48,271 bases of DNA, taken from IMG/VR virus record IMGVR_UViG_2558860170_000007, one strand, 5' to 3'. Shown one piece after another: positions 36,104 through 45,095 of the stretch. Position numbers and translations under genes: made by a program. The stretch is from a virus. Its lineage: Duplodnaviria > Heunggongvirae > Uroviricota > Caudoviricetes. The notes below the pieces were generated by a model. That model worked only from the letters and a program-made list of their open reading frames with translations, was not told the DNA's origin and searched no databases. The first letter of the stretch is position 1; each line of letters opens with the position of its first letter.

Positions 36104-36493
36104 CCAATTTTTTACGTACGTAAACCACTAAATGATATTTGCGAGAATGCTACCGAGTATTGAAAACACCACTACAAATACATAAGCAAATCCCAACAAA
36201 TAACCAACAAATAATTTCCAGTGTTATTTTTAGCCGGTTTAAATTGAACCTTCAAATTATAGAGCACTTATAAATAACAGCCGTTAATATAAATTGGCTA
36301 ATAGATTTATTTTTATTCAGCCAAGAGCCATGAATAGGATTCGATAGAAAAAAGTTCAGATAAAAATAGAGATCTACTTCACAAATCAAACGAGAAACCA
36401 AAACTTACATCTTGAAATAATCACATTGATTAGATGAATATTTATCGCGCAGTGACATCATTTTTTAATAATAGTTCAAAAAAAGGGCTCACG

Positions 36494-37576
36494 ATGAAAA
36501 AATTAACAGTGGCAATTTCTGCTGTAGCTGCATCAGTACTGATGGCGATGTCTGCTCAGGCAGCTGAAATTTATAATAAAGACAGTAACAAGCTGGATCT
36601 GTACGGGAAAGTTAATGCTAAGCACTACTTCTCCTCTAATGATGCAGATGATGGTGATACTACTTATGCCCGTCTTGGCTTCAAAGGTGAAACCCAAATC
36701 AACGATCAACTGACTGGTTTCGGTCAGTGGGAATATGAATTCAAAGGCAACCGCGCTGAATCTCAAGGTTCCTCCAAAGATAAAACCCGTCTTGCCTTCG
36801 CTGGCCTGAAATTCGGTGACTACGGCTCCATCGATTACGGCCGTAACTACGGTGTAGCATACGACATCGGTGCGTGGACTGACGTCCTGCCAGAATTCGG
36901 TGGTGACACTTGGACTCAAACAGATGTGTTCATGACTGGTCGCACCACTGGTGTTGCAACTTATCGTAACAACGACTTCTTTGGTCTGGTTGATGGTCTG
37001 AACTTTGCTGCTCAGTATCAGGGTAAAAATGACCGCACTGACGTAACTGAAGCTAATGGTGATGGTTTCGGTTTCTCCACTACTTATGAGTATGAAGGAT
37101 TCGGTGTAGGTGCAACCTATGCTAAATCTGACCGCACTAATAATCAGGTTATCTACGGTAACAACAGCCTGAATGCATCTGGTCAAAATGCTGAAGTATG
37201 GGCAGCTGGTCTGAAATATGATGCGAACAACATCTATCTGGCTACCACCTATTCTGAAACCCAGAACATGACTGTTTTTGGTAATAACCATATTGCCAAC
37301 AAAGCACAAAACTTCGAAGTAGTTGCACAATATCAGTTCGACTTCGGTCTGCGTCCGTCCGTTGCTTACCTGCAATCTAAAGGAAAAGACTTGGGTGCGT
37401 GGGGTGATCAGGACCTGGTTGAATATATTGATGTAGGTGCAACCTATTACTTCAACAAAAATATGTCCACTTTTGTTGATTACAAAATCAACCTGATTGA
37501 TAAGAGCGATTTCACGAAAGCATCTGGCGTTGCTACCGATGATATCGTTGCTGTAGGTATGGTTTACCAGTTCTAA
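36494..37576 (+). CDS. nmpC: Prophage-encoded general porin NmpC/OmpD-type (OmpC/OmpF family), apparently intact
   Basis: Signal peptide [23 protein letters not shown] then [16 protein letters not shown]...; C-terminal ...VGMVYQF. Start taken at MKKLTV (ORF track starts 20 codons upstream). Confidence 0.85.
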
Positions 37577-39020: not shown

Positions 39021-39183
39021 GATTCCTCCTTGCTGCCAGTCGCAACCATTTTTTATCAACCAGGCTAGCGGTATATCCGAGCAGTGTTGGTATTTCGGAT
39101 GGCTTCAGCTCAGGCTTACGCTTACGACGATTTGATACTCTGTAGATGTGCCCGTTCATGACACGAATAAGCGGTGTAGCCAT
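39013..39183 (-). CDS. ninE: NinE-like small protein
   Basis: 56-aa [59 protein letters not shown]; start overlaps the ybcN stop (TAATG) and stop lies 3 nt after the ybcO ATG; not in the ORF track (under 60 aa). Confidence 0.6.
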   Translation of the reverse strand: MATPLIRVMNGHIYRVSNRRKRKPELKPSEIPTLLGYTASLVDKKWLRLAARRNHG

Positions 39184-39638
39184 TACGCCTCCTGCTTATC
39201 GCGCAGCTGCTGGTATTCACAGCTCTGCGGAATTGTCAGGTGGCAGCCGATATTCATCGCCCAGGCTTCGACTTTGCACAGGAAGATGTACATCTCGCCG
39301 GTTTCCAGCTCTGACGTATGGCGGAGGGATTGGACGGTGGTGACCTCGCCGGACACGACATCTACACGGTCTTTGCTTTCGTAGCCGAGATAGGTGTGCT
39401 TCATCGCGTCTTTGACCCACTCAGGCGTAGCGAAGGTCTTGCCGCGGGCGATGAGATATTCGCTGATCTCCGTGTACCACATGTGGCTGAGCGCGTTCTG
39501 CGACAGGCTGCGCTTCTCGCGCCACGGCTTAACCTGCAGGCGTAAGCATTGCCCGGCATCCAGCAATGGCTGAATCTGCTGGCCGATGGCCGCGAAGTTA
39601 CCGCGATGGAGTTTGATGCCGTCTACTGGCAGAGTCAT
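39183..39638 (-). CDS. ybcN: YbcN/NinB-like nin-region protein (DUF1367-type)
   Basis: 151 aa, MTLPVDGIKLHRGNFAAIGQQIQPLLDAGQCLRLQVKPWREKRSLSQNALSHMWYTEISEYL... Confidence 0.65.
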   Translation of the reverse strand: MTLPVDGIKLHRGNFAAIGQQIQPLLDAGQCLRLQVKPWREKRSLSQNALSHMWYTEISEYLIARGKTFATPEWVKDAMKHTYLGYESKDRVDVVSGEVTTVQSLRHTSELETGEMYIFLCKVEAWAMNIGCHLTIPQSCEYQQLRDKQEA

Positions 39639-39902
39639 ACGGCCTCCCTAACGGAAACCGCAGAATGCAGAAAATCGCAGGTGCATTTCTGCATCTGTGA
39701 CAAGGTGATGAGTTCAGATTGTGGTCGCATTTAAGTCCCCTTAAATGCGCAGAAGTCACCGGAGTTGTTCAGGCTCCGATGAGAGGATTATGGCGGATTG
39801 ATTACGATAAATCAAAACTATCTTGAAGCCAAAACAGTGATCTTCGCTTTAAAAACCTTGTATACTTTCACCTAATCACAGCCAGAACTATGGATCTAAC
39901 CA

Positions 39903-40280
39903 ATGACCAACAAAGAAAACAAAGATAAATATATTAACAAGTTCAAGAAAGAGCTTTCAAAATATATACAACCAACTGCTGGAGTGGACATTCAATTATT
40001 TAACTCTAAGGATGGTGGTGGTGTAATTAAAGCCACTTTGAATAGAAGTGGAAAAAGAAAATCATCTATTGCTGGTAATTTTACTAAATTAGGTGAGGCA
40101 ATTACCTCGAGTGGGCAGAGGGTTTTTGGTGGTGATCTATCAAATGTGAATTTTTACGGAACAAATACGATTTTTGATGGAGATACAATATTTTTAATTA
40201 AATCACCTGATTCAGAGGAGTGGTCATCACAAAAAGCTTCCAAAGACGTAGAGGGCATCGTATTTGGAGGGAAAAAATGA
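39903..40280 (+). CDS. Uncharacterised small soluble protein, first gene of an AT-rich two-gene cassette
   Basis: 125 aa; Lys-rich N-terminus, Gly-rich motifs (SKDGGGV, VFGGD, IFDGD, VFGGKK); no TM segment; TATACT -10-like hexamer at 39861-39866 upstream; no family recognised. Confidence 0.6.
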   Translation: MTNKENKDKYINKFKKELSKYIQPTAGVDIQLFNSKDGGGVIKATLNRSGKRKSSIAGNFTKLGEAITSSGQRVFGGDLSNVNFYGTNTIFDGDTIFLIKSPDSEEWSSQKASKDVEGIVFGGKK

Positions 40281-40705
40281 TTAACATTACTACTAAGGAT
40301 GGCACTCAAGTCAGTGGTGAAGTAAGAGATCTAGTAATTCTTCTTGAAACTGATGGAAAAACGGTGTCTGATTATTTGCAGCCAATCCCTCCCAAAAAAG
40401 ATACACACTGGAGCATGATTTTCATTCCGGTAGCAATTTATATACTACTTAATCTTGTATACATTATTGCTCACCCATTATTTCCTGAAAAATATCTAAA
40501 AACATCAACATCTATATTTCTATTCATTTCCTTCATATTAAGTGCAATAGTAGCATATTTTGTTTTCCATAAGCATAAATCTGCCACTCTATCCATATGC
40601 AGCTTAGTGTTCTTAGTGTTAATTGTAGGTGCTAACGTAGGGTTTATCAGTTACAGCGACCTAACACAAAAAGCGACGCAAAAATTAGATAGTTTGTCTA
40701 AATAA
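40277..40705 (+). CDS. Uncharacterised small membrane protein (about 3 TM helices), second gene of the cassette
   Basis: 142 aa from the ATG at 40277 (GGAGGG Shine-Dalgarno 5 nt upstream; ATGA overlap with the stop of the upstream gene); about 45-aa soluble N-terminus then three hydrophobic helices. The ORF track gives an upstream alternative start at 40220. Confidence 0.6.
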   Translation: MINITTKDGTQVSGEVRDLVILLETDGKTVSDYLQPIPPKKDTHWSMIFIPVAIYILLNLVYIIAHPLFPEKYLKTSTSIFLFISFILSAIVAYFVFHKHKSATLSICSLVFLVLIVGANVGFISYSDLTQKATQKLDSLSK

Positions 40706-41144
40706 TTATGTTGCCATGCGAAGTATGCATGGCTGCATGTCTGCCTTCCATTTAAAATGGGCTAAGACCTATAACCCTAAATATTATTCTTTATTATCTT
40801 CTTTACCACTTCGGTGATGCTGCCAACTTACTGATTTAGTGTATGATGGTGTTTTTGAGGTGCTCCAGTGGCTTCTGTTTCTATCAGCTGTCCCTCCTGT
40901 TCAGCTACTGACGGGGTGGTGCGTAACGGCAAAAGCACTGCCGGACATCAGCGCTATCTCTGCTCTCACTGCCGTAAAACATGGCAACTGCAGTTCACTT
41001 ACACCGCTTCTCAACCCGGTACGCACCAGAAAATCATTGATATTGTCAGCGCCAGTGATATAAGACGGTAATTCGCCATTTGGATTGTCCGCTCCACCCA
41101 ACATGTTGTTTCCTTAAGGTTCTCACACCAGAAAGGACATCAAC

Positions 41145-43114
<1,970 letters not shown>

Positions 43115-43714
43115 CGAAAGTATTTAGCGGGCATGAAAATGGCAAATAACGGTCAAACATCGTGGCGTTGACAATATGGCCATGAATGGCGTTGGATGCC
43201 GGGCAACTGCACGCATTATGGGCGTTGGCCTCAACACGATTTTACGTCACTTAAAAAACTCAGGCCGCAGTCGGTAACCTCGCGCATACAGCCGGGCAGT
43301 GACGTCATCGTCTGCGCGGAAATGGACGAACAGTGGGGCTATGTCGGGGCTAAATCGCGCCAGCGCTGGCTGTTTTACGCGTATGACAGTCTCCGGAAGA
43401 CGGTTGTTGCGCACGTATTCGGTGAACGCACTATGGCGACGCTGGGGCGTCTTATGAGCCTGCTGTCACCCTTTGACGTGGTGATATGGATGACGGATGG
43501 CTGGCCGCTGTATGAATCCCGCCTGAAGGGAAAGCTGCACGTAATCAGCAAGCGATATACGCAGCGAATTGAGCGGCATAACCTGAATCTGAGGCAGCAC
43601 CTGACACGGCTGGGACGGAAGTCGCTGTCGTTCTCAAAATCGGTGGAGCTGCATGACAAAGTCATCGGGCATTATCTGAACATAAAACACTATCAATAAG
43701 TTGGAGTCATTACC

Positions 43715-43847: not shown

Positions 43848-45095
43848 ATGGCACTGAATATTCCATTCAGAAATGCGTACTATCGTTTTGCATCCAGTTA
43901 CTCATTTCTCTTTTTTATTTCCTGGTCGCTGTGGTGGTCGTTATACGCTATTTGGCTGAAAGGACATCTAGGATTGACAGGGACGGAATTAGGTACACTT
44001 TATTCGGTCAACCAGTTTACCAGCATTCTATTTATGATGTTCTACGGCATCGTTCAGGATAAACTCGGTCTGAAGAAACCGCTCATCTGGTGTATGAGTT
44101 TCATCCTGGTCTTGACCGGACCGTTTATGATTTACGTTTATGAACCGTTACTGCAAAGCAATTTTTCTGTAGGTCTAATTCTGGGAGCGCTCTTTTTTGG
44201 CCTGGGGTATCTGGCGGGATGCGGTTTGCTTGACAGCTTCACCGAAAAAATGGCGCGAAATTTTCATTTCGAATATGGAACAGCGCGCGCCTGGGGATCT
44301 TTTGGCTATGCTATTGGCGCGTTCTTTGCCGGCATATTTTTTAGTATCAGTCCCCATATCAACTTCTGGTTGGTCTCGCTATTTGGCGCTGTATTTATGA
44401 TGATCAACATGTGTTTTAAAGATAAGGATCACCAGTGCGTAGCGGCGGATGCGGGAGGGGTAAAAAAAGAGGATTTTATCGCAGTTTTCAAGGATCGAAA
44501 CTTCTGGGTTTTCGTCATATTTATTGTGGGGACGTGGTCTTTCTATAACATTTTTGATCAACAACTTTTTCCTGTCTTTTATGCAGGTTTATTCGAATCA
44601 CACGATGTAGGAACGCGCCTGTATGGTTATCTCAACTCATTCCAGGTGGTACTCGAAGCGCTATGCATGGCGATTATTCCTTTCTTTGTGAATCGGGTAG
44701 GGCCAAAAAATGCATTACTTATCGGTGTTGTGATTATGGCGTTGCGTATCCTTTCCTGCGCGCTGTTCGTTAACCCCTGGATTATTTCATTAGTGAAGCT
44801 GTTACATGCCATTGAGGTTCCACTTTGTGTCATATCCGTCTTCAAATACAGCGTGGCAAATTTTGATAAGCGCCTGTCGTCGACGATCTTTCTGATTGGT
44901 TTTCAAATTGCCAGTTCGCTTGGGATTGTGCTGCTTTCAACGCCGACTGGGATACTCTTTGACCACGCAGGCTACCAGACAGTTTTCTTCGCAATTTCGG
45001 GTATTGTCTGCCTAATGTTGCTATTTGGCATTTTCTTCCTGAGTAAAAAACGCGAGCAAATAGTTATGGAAACGCCTGTACCTTCAGCAATATAG
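43848..45095 (+). CDS. cscB: Sucrose:H+ symporter CscB (LacY-family oligosaccharide/H+ symporter)
   Basis: 415 aa, 12 predicted TM helices, MALNIPFRNAYYRFASSYSFLFFISWSLWWSLYAIWLKGHLGLTG... recalled as CscB; it is separated from the 5' part of cscK and from the csc promoter. Confidence 0.85.
   Translation: MALNIPFRNAYYRFASSYSFLFFISWSLWWSLYAIWLKGHLGLTGTELGTLYSVNQFTSILFMMFYGIVQDKLGLKKPLIWCMSFILVLTGPFMIYVYEPLLQSNFSVGLILGALFFGLGYLAGCGLLDSFTEKMARNFHFEYGTARAWGSFGYAIGAFFAGIFFSISPHINFWLVSLFGAVFMMINMCFKDKDHQCVAADAGGVKKEDFIAVFKDRNFWVFVIFIVGTWSFYNIFDQQLFPVFYAGLFESHDVGTRLYGYLNSFQVVLEALCMAIIPFFVNRVGPKNALLIGVVIMALRILSCALFVNPWIISLVKLLHAIEVPLCVISVFKYSVANFDKRLSSTIFLIGFQIASSLGIVLLSTPTGILFDHAGYQTVFFAISGIVCLMLLFGIFFLSKKREQIVMETPVPSAI

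What the first reader, a model, noticed from the sequence alone, without database searches (positions are those of the whole stretch)
39903..40705. AT-rich, translationally coupled two-gene cassette (soluble 125-aa protein plus 3-TM 142-aa protein) at the truncated early boundary of the prophage
Two ORFs on the + strand, opposite to the flanking phage nin genes. ORF1 (39903-40280) is a Lys/Gly-rich soluble protein. ORF2 (40277-40705) has an approximately 45-aa soluble N-terminus followed by three hydrophobic helices. The ORF1 stop overlaps the ORF2 start (ATGA) and a GGAGGG Shine-Dalgarno sits 5 nt upstream of ORF2, so the pair looks like one operon. The segment is clearly more AT-rich than the phage genes next to it, suggesting separate acquisition. 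It sits where lambdoid prophages carry variable moron cargo, between the nin genes and the (missing) replication/immunity region. I do not recognise either protein as a member of a named family. A small cytoplasmic protein plus a small membrane protein is an architecture seen in superinfection-exclusion, abortive-infection and toxin-type pairs, but that function is inference, not observation.
Basis: partly seen in the sequence, partly recalled or inferred. Interest (0 to 1): 0.8.

Follow-up and report, generated by a model that had tools for sequence, protein, structure and literature searches.

The report
Uncharacterised mobile two-gene membrane module
The two overlapping genes are real and form a rare module of unknown function (a small soluble protein plus a three-helix membrane protein) that travels as a unit on prophages, plasmids and defence islands in many bacterial phyla, so it is a credible but untested candidate for a new anti-phage or exclusion system.

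Summary
ORF1 (39903-40280) and ORF2 (40277-40705) overlap in ATGA, with a GGAGGG ribosome-binding site 5 nt upstream. Their GC is 34% against 54% in the neighbouring nin genes. They lie antisense between prophage gene P, which IS1 cuts at about 40813, and ylcH/ybcN.

Both genes are under purifying selection (dN/dS about 0.1). Neither matches Pfam, NCBIfam, PADLOC, PDB sequences or any solved fold. Each matches only one PHROG of unknown function.

An exhaustive profile search shows that ORF1 belongs to a rare, wider family (111 representatives) spread across Proteobacteria, Bacteroidota, Acidobacteriota and Myxococcota. In every locus examined (about 80), the ORF1-like gene is followed by an ORF2-like partner, usually with a 4-nt overlap. 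The partner has a roughly 35-aa soluble N-terminus (EGTPEE-type motif) and three TM helices. The divergences of the two proteins are correlated (Mantel r = 0.88).

The module occurs at a variable cargo site in lambdoid prophages, in other phages, downstream of rep on ColE2-type plasmids, between the Mod and Res genes of a Type III R-M system, and near PD-Lambda-1. One relative is fused to an HNH nuclease.

The best reading is a new sensor-plus-membrane-effector defence or exclusion module. It resembles RexAB in architecture only, and its function is untested.

The parts
39861..39866 (+). Candidate -10 element (TATACT) of the cassette's own promoter; the -35 is weak
   Evidence: A -10-like hexamer is kept at the same distance (about 35-40 nt) upstream of the ATG in diverged copies, while the surrounding DNA is not conserved: TATACT in the window and 536, TATGAT in L003, TATAAT in L008. 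The consensus scan did not report it because the -35 is poor. It remains a candidate only.
39903..40280 (+). ORF1: 125-aa basic soluble protein (RefSeq WP_000182282.1, phrog_18061). Proposed cytosolic sensor or regulator subunit.
   Evidence: ORF. dN/dS 0.08-0.11. 111 distant relatives found, with conserved Y10, G39, F84-x-G86-T87-(N), I99-K100, W107 and D115. No Pfam, NCBIfam, PADLOC or PDB match. The AF2 model is poor (pLDDT 58) and shows alpha-beta-beta-alpha-beta-beta-alpha.
40266..40271 (+). Shine-Dalgarno GGAGGG for ORF2, inside the 3' end of ORF1
   Evidence: Read directly from the sequence; 5-nt spacer to the ATG at 40277.
40277..40705 (+). ORF2: 142-aa inner-membrane protein (WP_000608370.1, phrog_16940). 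It has a soluble N-terminal domain of about 45 aa and 3 TM helices. Proposed effector subunit.
   Evidence: ORF and ATGA overlap. TM segments at 47-65, 79-97 and 106-124. AF2 shows three long helices. dN/dS 0.08-0.13. A homologous or architecturally identical partner lies downstream of every ORF1 relative examined.
40708..40768 (.). Two stable hairpins between the convergent ORF2 and P genes (possible bidirectional terminator region)
   Evidence: RNA fold gives -23.2 kcal/mol, z = -2.8. On the - strand the second hairpin is followed by a T-run and is flagged as terminator-like. There is no U-tract on the + strand, so termination of the cassette transcript is not shown.
40784..40813 (-). Remnant (last ~9 codons plus stop) of lambdoid replication gene P, cut by IS1
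   Evidence: The window is identical to the E. coli 536 prophage up to 40813, and P in 536 ends 78 nt downstream of ORF2. From about 40813 onward the sequence is IS1: the InsA zinc ribbon lies at 40868-41068.
39632..39730 (-). Small ylcH-like ORF (32 aa) that starts the nin-region genes and marks the other border of the cargo site
   Evidence: Annotated at the equivalent position in E. coli 536, BL21 and O157 prophages. This 118-nt border sequence occurs in about 2190 E. coli genomes, whereas the cassette occurs in 46.
39183..39638 (-). ybcN (NinB/Orf family), the first conserved nin gene flanking the cassette
   Evidence: Pfam NinB; RefSeq annotation of the identical gene in 536.

Best explanation
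ORF1 and ORF2 form a self-contained two-gene accessory module that moves horizontally as a unit. Here it is carried as antisense cargo (a 'moron') at the P/nin junction of a DLP12/lambda-like prophage.

The most likely function is protection of the carrier cell, and so of the carrying element, against other phages or mobile elements. In this model ORF1 is a small cytosolic sensor or regulator that acts on the conserved cytoplasmic N-terminal domain of ORF2. ORF2 is a three-helix inner-membrane effector that, once triggered, compromises the membrane (abortive infection) or blocks entry. Logically this parallels lambda RexA/RexB, but the proteins are unrelated.

Because the cassette is convergent with the pR late-early transcript, it would be expressed from its own promoter in the lysogen. 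Antisense read-through would oppose it when the host prophage itself is induced.

**Shown:** the gene pair, translational coupling signals, purifying selection, strict co-inheritance, mobility across phages, plasmids and islands, a variable insertion site, proximity to known defence genes, and the absence of any known family.

**Inferred:** the ORF1-ORF2 interaction, the topology (N-in), the trigger, the membrane effect, the timing of expression, and the defence phenotype itself.
For: **Unit character**
- An ORF2-like partner follows every ORF1 relative examined, usually with a 4-nt overlap. This holds in lambdoid prophages of E. coli, Klebsiella, Enterobacter and Citrobacter and in Acinetobacter, Chryseobacterium and other phages.
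- It also holds on ColE2-type Mob plasmids, in 9 GTDB genomes from 5 phyla, and in 29 of 29 metagenome loci.
- The ORF1 and ORF2 distance matrices correlate (Mantel r = 0.88, p = 2e-4).
- dN/dS is about 0.1 for both genes.

**Accessory, mobile character**
- The pair is present in 46 of 5426 E. coli genomes.
- The same junction holds other cargo elsewhere.
- GC3 is 0.27 against 0.76 for the flanking ybcN.

**Defence association**
- In a Bacteroides genome the pair lies between the Mod (2e-205) and Res (2e-290) genes of a Type III R-M system, next to an SNF2 helicase candidate.
- In an Acinetobacter prophage it lies 2.3 kb from PD-Lambda-1/SNIPE (1e-177) and close to the KAP-NTPase candidate PDC-S49.
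- BstA-like genes, an Xre-MbcA antitoxin and an HSDR_N protein occur in other neighbourhoods.

**Effector modularity**
- One relative (P0104, seen in two samples) fuses the ORF1-like domain to an HNH endonuclease (1.3e-12) in place of a membrane partner.

**Own promoter**
- A -10-like element is conserved in position.
Against: - There is no experimental evidence of any kind. The literature and the DefensePredictor supplements have nothing on these proteins.
- PADLOC has no model for either protein, including its candidate (PDC) families.
- Several neighbourhoods contain no recognisable defence gene (Mesorhizobium L018, Flavobacterium L041, the islet downstream of ligA). The co-localisation rests on a handful of loci and was not tested statistically.
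- The HNH fusion is a single case.
- The cassette is very AT-rich, so H-NS may silence it in E. coli. The promoter lacks a good -35 and the + strand has no clear terminator.
- Natural knock-outs of either gene alone exist, so the module is dispensable.
Confidence: 0.42

Rival explanations
1. Toxin-antitoxin or addiction module. ORF2 is a membrane-damaging toxin and ORF1 its protein antitoxin (upstream antitoxin, translationally coupled downstream toxin). The pair stabilises plasmids and prophages by post-segregational killing. Any anti-phage effect would be secondary.
For: The gene order, small sizes and 4-nt overlap are typical of TA operons. The module sits directly downstream of rep on small ColE2-type plasmids, where addiction functions are useful. 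It is scattered over plasmids, prophages and chromosomal islets, once next to an Xre-MbcA antitoxin. ORF2 is frameshifted while ORF1 is intact in two viral contigs, as expected if ORF2 is costly.
Against: There is no similarity to any TA family in Pfam, NCBIfam or PADLOC. ORF1 has no recognisable DNA-binding domain for autoregulation. In E. coli CV839-06 an IS1 disrupts ORF1 while ORF2 stays intact. That would be lethal if ORF2 were a constitutively active toxin, although the insertion may also abolish ORF2 transcription. The HNH fusion is hard to reconcile with ORF1 being only an antitoxin.
Confidence: 0.2
2. Non-lethal superinfection exclusion at the inner membrane. The ORF2/ORF1 complex blocks DNA injection, or the use of an inner-membrane entry factor, by incoming phages or plasmids, without killing the cell. 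This would resemble P22 SieA, T4 Imm or HK97 gp15.
For: ORF2 is a small inner-membrane protein encoded as prophage cargo, antisense to the lytic operon. The module is carried by phages of several phyla and by mobilisable plasmids, which would also benefit from entry exclusion. It neighbours PD-Lambda-1/SNIPE in one prophage; a paper found here reports a membrane-bound nuclease that cleaves phage DNA during genome injection (PMC13190303, title and abstract as listed).
Against: The known exclusion proteins are, to my knowledge, single membrane proteins, and the strict need for a soluble partner is unexplained. The chromosomal copies inside an R-M operon and the HNH fusion fit a sense-and-execute system better than a passive block. 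There is no homology to any known Sie protein in the PHROGs or Pfam annotation.
Confidence: 0.15
3. A lysogenic-conversion or host-fitness function unrelated to defence, for example a membrane, stress or transport function, or a regulator of a host membrane protein. The module would be carried as ordinary prophage or plasmid cargo, like emrE, bor or nmpC at neighbouring sites.
For: In other prophages the same junction carries non-defence cargo such as emrE (multidrug efflux) and ybcL/ybcM. Several neighbourhoods lack defence genes. ORF2 has weak, sub-threshold similarity only to generic polytopic membrane families.
Against: The module spans at least five phyla with very different envelopes and lifestyles, and occurs on phages, plasmids and defence islands. 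This argues for a function aimed at mobile elements rather than a niche-specific trait. The HNH-nuclease fusion does not fit a transport or stress role.
Confidence: 0.15
4. The ORFs are not functional genes: chance ORFs, or decaying remnants in an AT-rich spacer.
For: The region is AT-rich, no family is known, and every annotation says 'hypothetical'.
Against: pN is far below pS, with dN/dS about 0.1 at 66-76% amino-acid identity. Full-length conservation extends to 20-40% identity across phyla, with conserved motifs and a conserved partner.
Confidence: 0.01

Closest known systems
Lambda RexA/RexB exclusion system (and RexAB-type systems in other prophages)
   Same: It is a prophage-encoded two-gene unit expressed outside the lytic programme, with a soluble protein encoded upstream of a small polytopic inner-membrane protein of almost the same size (RexB 144 aa, ORF2 142 aa). 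The proposed logic, a cytosolic sensor activating a membrane effector, is the same.
   Different: There is no detectable homology: hhalign probability is 1.4% for ORF2 against RexB and 0.04% for ORF1 against RexA. ORF1 is 125 aa where RexA is 279 aa. ORF2 has 3 predicted TM helices where RexB has 4 (the RexB number is from general knowledge). The location is the P/nin junction with an own promoter, not the cI-rexA-rexB operon. The ORF1/ORF2 family is also found on plasmids and in Bacteroidota.
Actinobacteriophage prophage two-component defences (Butters gp30/gp31, Sbash gp30/gp31, CarolAnn)
   Same: These have the same architecture of one cytoplasmic and one membrane protein, expressed from the prophage and protecting against heterotypic phages. 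The Butters and CarolAnn papers (PMC7542560, PMC6426606) were found; only their titles and abstracts were seen.
   Different: The host phylum is different. Whether their mechanism applies is unknown.
Lambdoid 'morons' and accessory cargo at the P/ren-nin junction (emrE, ybcK, ybcL, ybcM of DLP12-type prophages)
   Same: The insertion site between P/ren and ylcH-ybcN is the same. The cargo has foreign base composition and is present in some prophages and absent in others that are otherwise collinear.
   Different: The gene content is unrelated. This cargo is a strictly paired module that also occurs far outside lambdoid phages.
Type V-like membrane-toxin TA pairs (for example GhoS/GhoT)
   Same: A small soluble protein is encoded upstream of a small membrane protein in one operon (general knowledge).
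   Different: GhoT is a peptide of about 57 aa and GhoS an RNase. There is no sequence similarity to any TA family in Pfam, NCBIfam or PADLOC. Toxicity was not tested.

Membership tests
RexAB (lambda exclusion system) | RexA-homologous soluble component | tested here: not met
   hhalign of the 83-sequence ORF1 family alignment against lambda RexA gives probability 0.04%. No Pfam or PADLOC hit.
RexAB (lambda exclusion system) | RexB-homologous membrane component with four TM helices | tested here: not met
   hhalign of the ORF2 alignment against lambda RexB gives probability 1.4%. Three TM segments are predicted.
RexAB (lambda exclusion system) | Located in the immunity region and co-transcribed with the repressor | tested here: not met
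   The pair lies between P and ylcH/ybcN, far from the repressor, in all lambdoid copies. Compare the lambda map.
RexAB (lambda exclusion system) | Infection-triggered membrane depolarisation and exclusion of specific phages | not testable with these tools
   Requires phage challenge and membrane-potential assays.
Described or candidate anti-phage systems in PADLOC-DB v2.0 | Significant match of either protein to a system model | tested here: not met
   No hit at E <= 1 for either protein. Among 83 diverse ORF1 relatives there were only four isolated single-member hits at E 0.002-0.009. Systems described after 2023 could not be screened.
Defence systems in general (guilt by association) | Recurrent location next to known defence genes or in defence hotspots of mobile elements | tested here: inconclusive
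   Positive cases: inside a Type III R-M operon (L039); next to PD-Lambda-1 and PDC-S49 (L015); in prophages carrying BstA-like genes. Other loci have no recognisable defence neighbour. No statistical enrichment test was run.
Toxin-antitoxin systems | Homology of either protein to a known toxin or antitoxin family | tested here: not met
   Pfam, NCBIfam and PADLOC were all negative.
Toxin-antitoxin systems | Toxin lethal alone and neutralised by the cognate antitoxin | not testable with these tools
   Only indirect evidence exists. A natural IS1 knock-out of ORF1 with ORF2 intact is viable, and ORF2 frameshifts occur with ORF1 intact. Both are compatible with several models.
Lambdoid prophage moron | Insertion between genes that are adjacent in related phages, with deviant base composition | tested here: met
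   The P/ren-ylcH junction holds this pair in 46 genomes and other or no cargo in roughly 2100 others. GC is 0.34 against 0.54.
Lambdoid prophage moron | Own promoter and terminator; expressed in the lysogen | tested here: inconclusive
   A -10-like element is conserved in position but the -35 is weak. Stable hairpins lie downstream but the + strand has no U-tract. No expression data are available.
Pore-forming colicin immunity proteins, holins | Match to Colicin_im or holin families; adjacency to a colicin or to lysis genes | tested here: not met
   ORF2 has no Pfam hit to these families. The pair is not in the lysis cassette. A colicin/immunity pair lies next to it in L008, but that is a separate gene pair.

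The most novel reading that the evidence does not exclude
The pair is the E. coli/Shigella representative of an undescribed defence family that spans several phyla. In this reading a small alpha/beta 'YINNFR...GTN...LIK' sensor domain is coupled to interchangeable effectors: usually a dedicated 3-TM membrane protein with an EGTPEE-type cytoplasmic docking domain, and occasionally a fused HNH nuclease. Phages, plasmids and defence islands would spread the family. Neither component is related to any known immune protein.
Probability: 0.35. Interest if true: 0.6.

Novelty: new variant of a known kind. Interest (0 to 1): 0.5.

Why it matters
If the module is a defence or exclusion system, it adds two new protein families to the prokaryotic immune repertoire. 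The two-gene system is about 800 bp long and works in organisms from E. coli to Bacteroides, which makes it small enough for straightforward genetics and structural work.

It would also give a function to a recurrent pair of hypothetical proteins in uropathogenic E. coli 536-type prophages, Shigella, Klebsiella and Enterobacter. It would document the P/nin junction of lambdoid prophages as a defence-cargo hotspot.

If it turns out to be a TA or addiction module, it would be an unusual protein-antitoxin and membrane-toxin pair. Either way the comparative data assembled here make the question directly testable. They comprise about 110 ORF1 relatives, more than 80 paired loci, the conserved motifs and the natural knock-outs.

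Tried and rejected
**Family and homology searches**
- Pfam, NCBIfam, PADLOC and PHROGs on both proteins gave only two PHROGs of unknown function.
- Pfam, PADLOC and PHROGs on 83 diverse ORF1 relatives added nothing.
- PDB sequence-profile searches with the ORF1 family and with the ORF2 N-terminal domain gave nothing significant.
- hhalign against lambda RexA, RexB and Ren gave no similarity.
- The word-indexed homolog search with the broad alignment returned only 28 unnamed proteins.

**Structure**
- AF2 models built from shallow alignments were poor (pLDDT 58 and 68).
- The afdb50 library was unavailable.

**Sequence collections**
- tblastn of both proteins against PLSDB plasmids, and of ORF1 against INPHARED phages, found no match.
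- The search for related loci with the full 83-sequence alignment failed for lack of a conserved stretch. A YINNFR sub-alignment solved this.

**Literature**
- Searches by accession number, sequence fragment and topic found nothing on these proteins.
- The Brenes & Laub 2025 prophage-defence paper is not held.

**Ideas considered and dropped**
- Holin or lysis function: wrong location and no family match.
- Colicin immunity: no match.
- Plasmid entry exclusion only: the module also occurs in phages and chromosomes.
- A SAP/HeH-like DNA-binding N-terminus of ORF2: this was a resemblance from memory only, with no Pfam or PDB support.
Full report
**1. The observation**

ORF1 is at 39903-40280 (125 aa) and ORF2 at 40277-40705 (142 aa), both on the + strand. 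The ORF1 stop and ORF2 start overlap as ATGA. GGAGGG lies at 40266-40271, five bases before the ATG.

ORF1 is basic and hydrophilic: 17 K and 15 G in 125 residues, pI 9.5. ORF2 has a soluble N-terminus of about 45 residues and three hydrophobic segments at 47-65, 79-97 and 106-124. The AF2 model also shows these as three long helices.

GC is 0.34 for both genes against 0.54 for the adjacent nin genes. GC3 is 0.26-0.28 against 0.76 for ybcN.

The flanking genes on the - strand are ybcN (NinB family), ninE, ybcO, rusA and the Q antiterminator. An OmpC/NmpC-type porin lies beyond them. On the other side, the window is identical to the intact prophage of E. coli 536 up to 40813. There an IS1 begins, leaving only the last ~30 nt of replication gene P. 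That IS1 is itself split by an IS21-family element, and a CscB-like permease follows. The 'truncated early boundary' is therefore real.

**2. Real genes, one unit**

I compared the window with copies from Klebsiella and Enterobacter prophages that are 66-76% identical. Non-synonymous differences are about five times rarer than synonymous ones, giving dN/dS of 0.08-0.13 for both genes.

The close family is tiny: 13 and 17 clusters among 5.8 billion proteins, all from Enterobacteriaceae. In every context the 125-aa and 142-aa genes occur together with the same overlap. They lie antisense between the replication/ea genes and the nin genes of otherwise mosaic lambdoid prophages.

Only 46 of 5426 complete E. 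coli genomes carry the pair, all at >=99% identity. The 118-nt ylcH/ybcN border sequence occurs in about 2190 genomes. In those other prophages the same junction holds emrE-ybcK-ybcL-ybcM, emrE-ybcK alone, a P22AR-C-domain gene or an antisense alpha/beta hydrolase. The site is a variable cargo slot and the pair is one of its rarer occupants.

A -10-like hexamer sits 35-40 nt upstream of the ATG in diverged copies, although the rest of the upstream DNA differs: TATACT here, TATGAT and TATAAT elsewhere. The -35 is weak, and the simple scan did not call this promoter. Two stable hairpins separate the convergent ORF2 and P genes.

**3. No known family**

Neither protein matches Pfam, NCBIfam or PADLOC. 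Each matches one PHROG of unknown function, phrog_18061 and phrog_16940. RefSeq calls both hypothetical (WP_000182282.1 and WP_000608370.1).

The literature and the DefensePredictor supplements contain neither the accession numbers nor sequence fragments.

**4. A wider, ancient family**

The exhaustive profile search with ORF1 found 111 representatives at E < 1e-3. Nearly all are 120-135 aa and align end to end at 20-42% identity. The conserved positions are Y10 (often within YINNFRR), G39, F84-x-G86-T87-N, I99-K100, W107 and D115. The central region, residues 48-83, is variable and predicted with low confidence.

All 83 members that I aligned fall into phrog_18061. None has a Pfam domain or a PADLOC match.

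The organisms include Citrobacter, Enterobacter, Acinetobacter, Mesorhizobium, Chryseobacterium, Mariniflexile, Flavobacterium and Bacteroides. They also include Myxococcales, Deltaproteobacteria, a betaproteobacterium and Acidobacteriota.

**5. The partner is always there**

In every locus with enough downstream DNA, the ORF1-like gene is followed by a 120-145-aa gene. Usually the overlap is 4 nt. The counts are:

- 10 of 10 contexts from the contig index
- 8 further places for two more relatives
- 9 of 9 GTDB genomes
- 21 of 21 IMG/VR contigs, two of them with a 1-nt frameshift in ORF2
- 29 of 29 metagenome loci

The partners share one architecture. A short N-terminal soluble domain has the typical form MK.G..EGTPEE(I/V)(R/K)(D/N)F...GL....Y(I/L)E.P. 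The E. coli version is a diverged form of it. Three TM helices follow, with a basic loop (RFK, or HKHK in E. coli) between TM2 and TM3, and then a short amphipathic tail. The distribution of positive charges favours an N-in topology; this is inference.

The close-family ORF2 profile detects the plasmid partners at 1e-26 to 1e-31. It detects more distant ones only weakly.

The pairwise divergences of ORF1 and ORF2 across 23 loci are strongly correlated (Mantel r = 0.88, p = 2e-4). The two genes are inherited together without partner exchange.

**6. Where the module lives**

- **Phages.** Besides the lambdoid P/nin junction, it occurs in Citrobacter and Enterobacter at the same site. It occurs in the accessory region of an Acinetobacter prophage, in a Chryseobacterium prophage and in other uncultivated phages.
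- **Plasmids.** On small mobilisable plasmids it follows, and overlaps, a ColE2-type rep gene (Replicase + PriCT_1). MobC, relaxase and MbeB/D genes are nearby.
- **Chromosomes.** It occurs in chromosomal islets.
- **Next to defence genes.** In an uncultured Bacteroides genome it is wedged between the Mod (PADLOC MTase_III, 2e-205) and Res (REase_III, 2e-290) genes of a Type III R-M system. An SNF2 helicase candidate and a DUF4391 gene lie beside them. In the Acinetobacter prophage it lies 2.3 kb from PD-Lambda-1/SNIPE (1e-177) and near the KAP-NTPase candidate PDC-S49 (1e-146). BstA-like genes, an Xre-MbcA antitoxin, an HSDR_N protein, transposases and, in one prophage, a colicin/immunity pair and a DndB-like gene occur in other neighbourhoods.
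- **Without defence genes.** Some loci show no recognisable defence gene.

**7. A fusion**

P0104 is 447 aa and was seen in two samples. It consists of an ORF1-like domain (residues 7-119), an HNH endonuclease domain (Pfam HNH, 1.3e-12) and an uncharacterised C-terminal half. A small conserved domain joined either to a membrane protein or to a nuclease is the pattern expected of a sensor with exchangeable effectors. This is one case only.

**8. Natural knock-outs**

In E. coli CV839-06 an IS1 interrupts ORF1 and leaves ORF2 intact. In two IMG/VR contigs ORF2 carries a 1-nt indel while ORF1 is intact. Each gene can therefore be lost singly. This weakly argues against ORF1 being an indispensable antitoxin to a constitutively expressed toxin. 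The IS1 may also cut off transcription of ORF2, so the argument is not strong.

**9. Interpretation**

What is established:

- The two genes form a strictly paired, translationally coupled module under purifying selection.
- The module is horizontally mobile.
- Its two protein families are undescribed.
- Here it sits as foreign, AT-rich, antisense cargo in a variable slot of a lambdoid prophage.

Several features make a conflict function the most probable, namely defence or exclusion against other phages or mobile elements. The module is carried by phages, plasmids and defence islands across phyla. It is rare and patchy. It lies near R-M, PD-Lambda-1 and BstA-like genes. One relative is fused to an HNH nuclease. 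I put this reading at 0.42 for the sense-and-execute (abortive-infection-like) version and 0.15 for a non-lethal entry block.

The architecture parallels lambda RexAB and the two-component prophage defences of actinophages (PMC7542560, PMC6426606, found). Membership of RexAB was tested and not met. A TA or addiction role (0.2) fits the operon layout and the plasmid location. A non-defence fitness function (0.15) cannot be excluded, because the same slot elsewhere carries emrE. Non-functionality is excluded.

Nothing here shows a phenotype. The mechanism, including the ORF1-ORF2 contact, the trigger, the membrane effect and lysogen-specific expression, is inference. The low GC content raises the possibility that H-NS silences the cassette in E. 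coli.

**10. Novelty and score**

The kind of system is well known: a prophage-borne or plasmid-borne two-gene module with a membrane effector. The protein families are not described anywhere I could search, and their breadth across phyla was not apparent from the window. I therefore rate the finding a new variant of a known kind.

Candidate defence systems of unknown mechanism are now predicted by the thousand (abstract of PMC13092281), so a specialist would find this plausible rather than startling. Its merits are that it is small, strictly defined, broadly distributed, and easy to test. Interest is 0.5.

Noticed in passing
window 40813-43700: An IS1 element truncates prophage gene P. An IS21-family element (istA 41145-42317, istB 42314-43114) is inserted into the IS1 insA gene, so the IS1 is itself split. 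The IS1 transposase part resumes at 43196-43699. A CscB-like LacY-family sugar permease follows at 43848-45095, so the prophage's replication, immunity and integration half is missing here.
   Followed up: partly
L066 (E. coli CV839-06, NZ_CP025753.1) 1554-2411: An IS1 is inserted inside ORF1 (only a 49-aa N-terminal stub is annotated) while ORF2 remains intact. This is a natural ORF1 knock-out in a viable strain.
   Followed up: partly
L052 and L060 (IMG/VR contigs), about 6375-6803: ORF2 carries a single-base frameshift while ORF1 is intact. This is either a sequencing error or pseudogenisation of the membrane component.
   Followed up: partly
L019/L020 246-1589 (protein P0104): A 447-aa protein fuses an ORF1-like domain to an HNH endonuclease domain and an unknown C-terminal half. 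It was found in two sequencing runs on contigs of about 1.7 kb, so no neighbours are visible.
   Followed up: partly
L039 (uncultured Bacteroides sp. UMGS1534) 16-9919: The homologous pair is inserted between the Mod and Res genes of a Type III restriction-modification system. An SNF2 helicase candidate (PADLOC 'HKD+Snf2') and a DUF4391 gene lie upstream. This looks like a compact defence island.
   Followed up: partly
L010 3-3080; L011, L012: On small mobilisable plasmids the pair directly follows, and overlaps, a ColE2-type rep gene (Replicase + PriCT_1). It sits where ColE2-type plasmids, to my knowledge, usually carry a colicin operon.
   Followed up: partly
L008 5297-6980 and 8750-10603: In this enterobacterial prophage the cassette is flanked on one side by a colicin-like gene with a Colicin_im immunity gene. 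On the other side are a DndB-like gene and an HNH gene. The junction appears to accumulate conflict-related cargo.
   Followed up: no
window 39632-39730 (- strand): A small 32-aa ylcH-like ORF overlaps the start of ybcN by 4 nt. It is annotated in E. coli 536, BL21 and O157 prophages and corresponds to 'orf33' of phage 82. Its upstream 118 nt is the conserved border of the cargo slot.
   Followed up: partly
window 36434-37576: The prophage-borne OmpC/NmpC-type porin ORF is intact here (380 aa as listed, from an upstream ATG). In BL21 the equivalent gene is split by an IS1.
   Followed up: no
protein P0083 (219 aa) and P0116, P0132, P0136: Some ORF1-family members have N-terminal extensions of 85-110 aa with no Pfam match. 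In P0083 the extension contains a signal-peptide-like stretch, which would place that homolog outside the cytoplasm unless the gene call is wrong.
   Followed up: no
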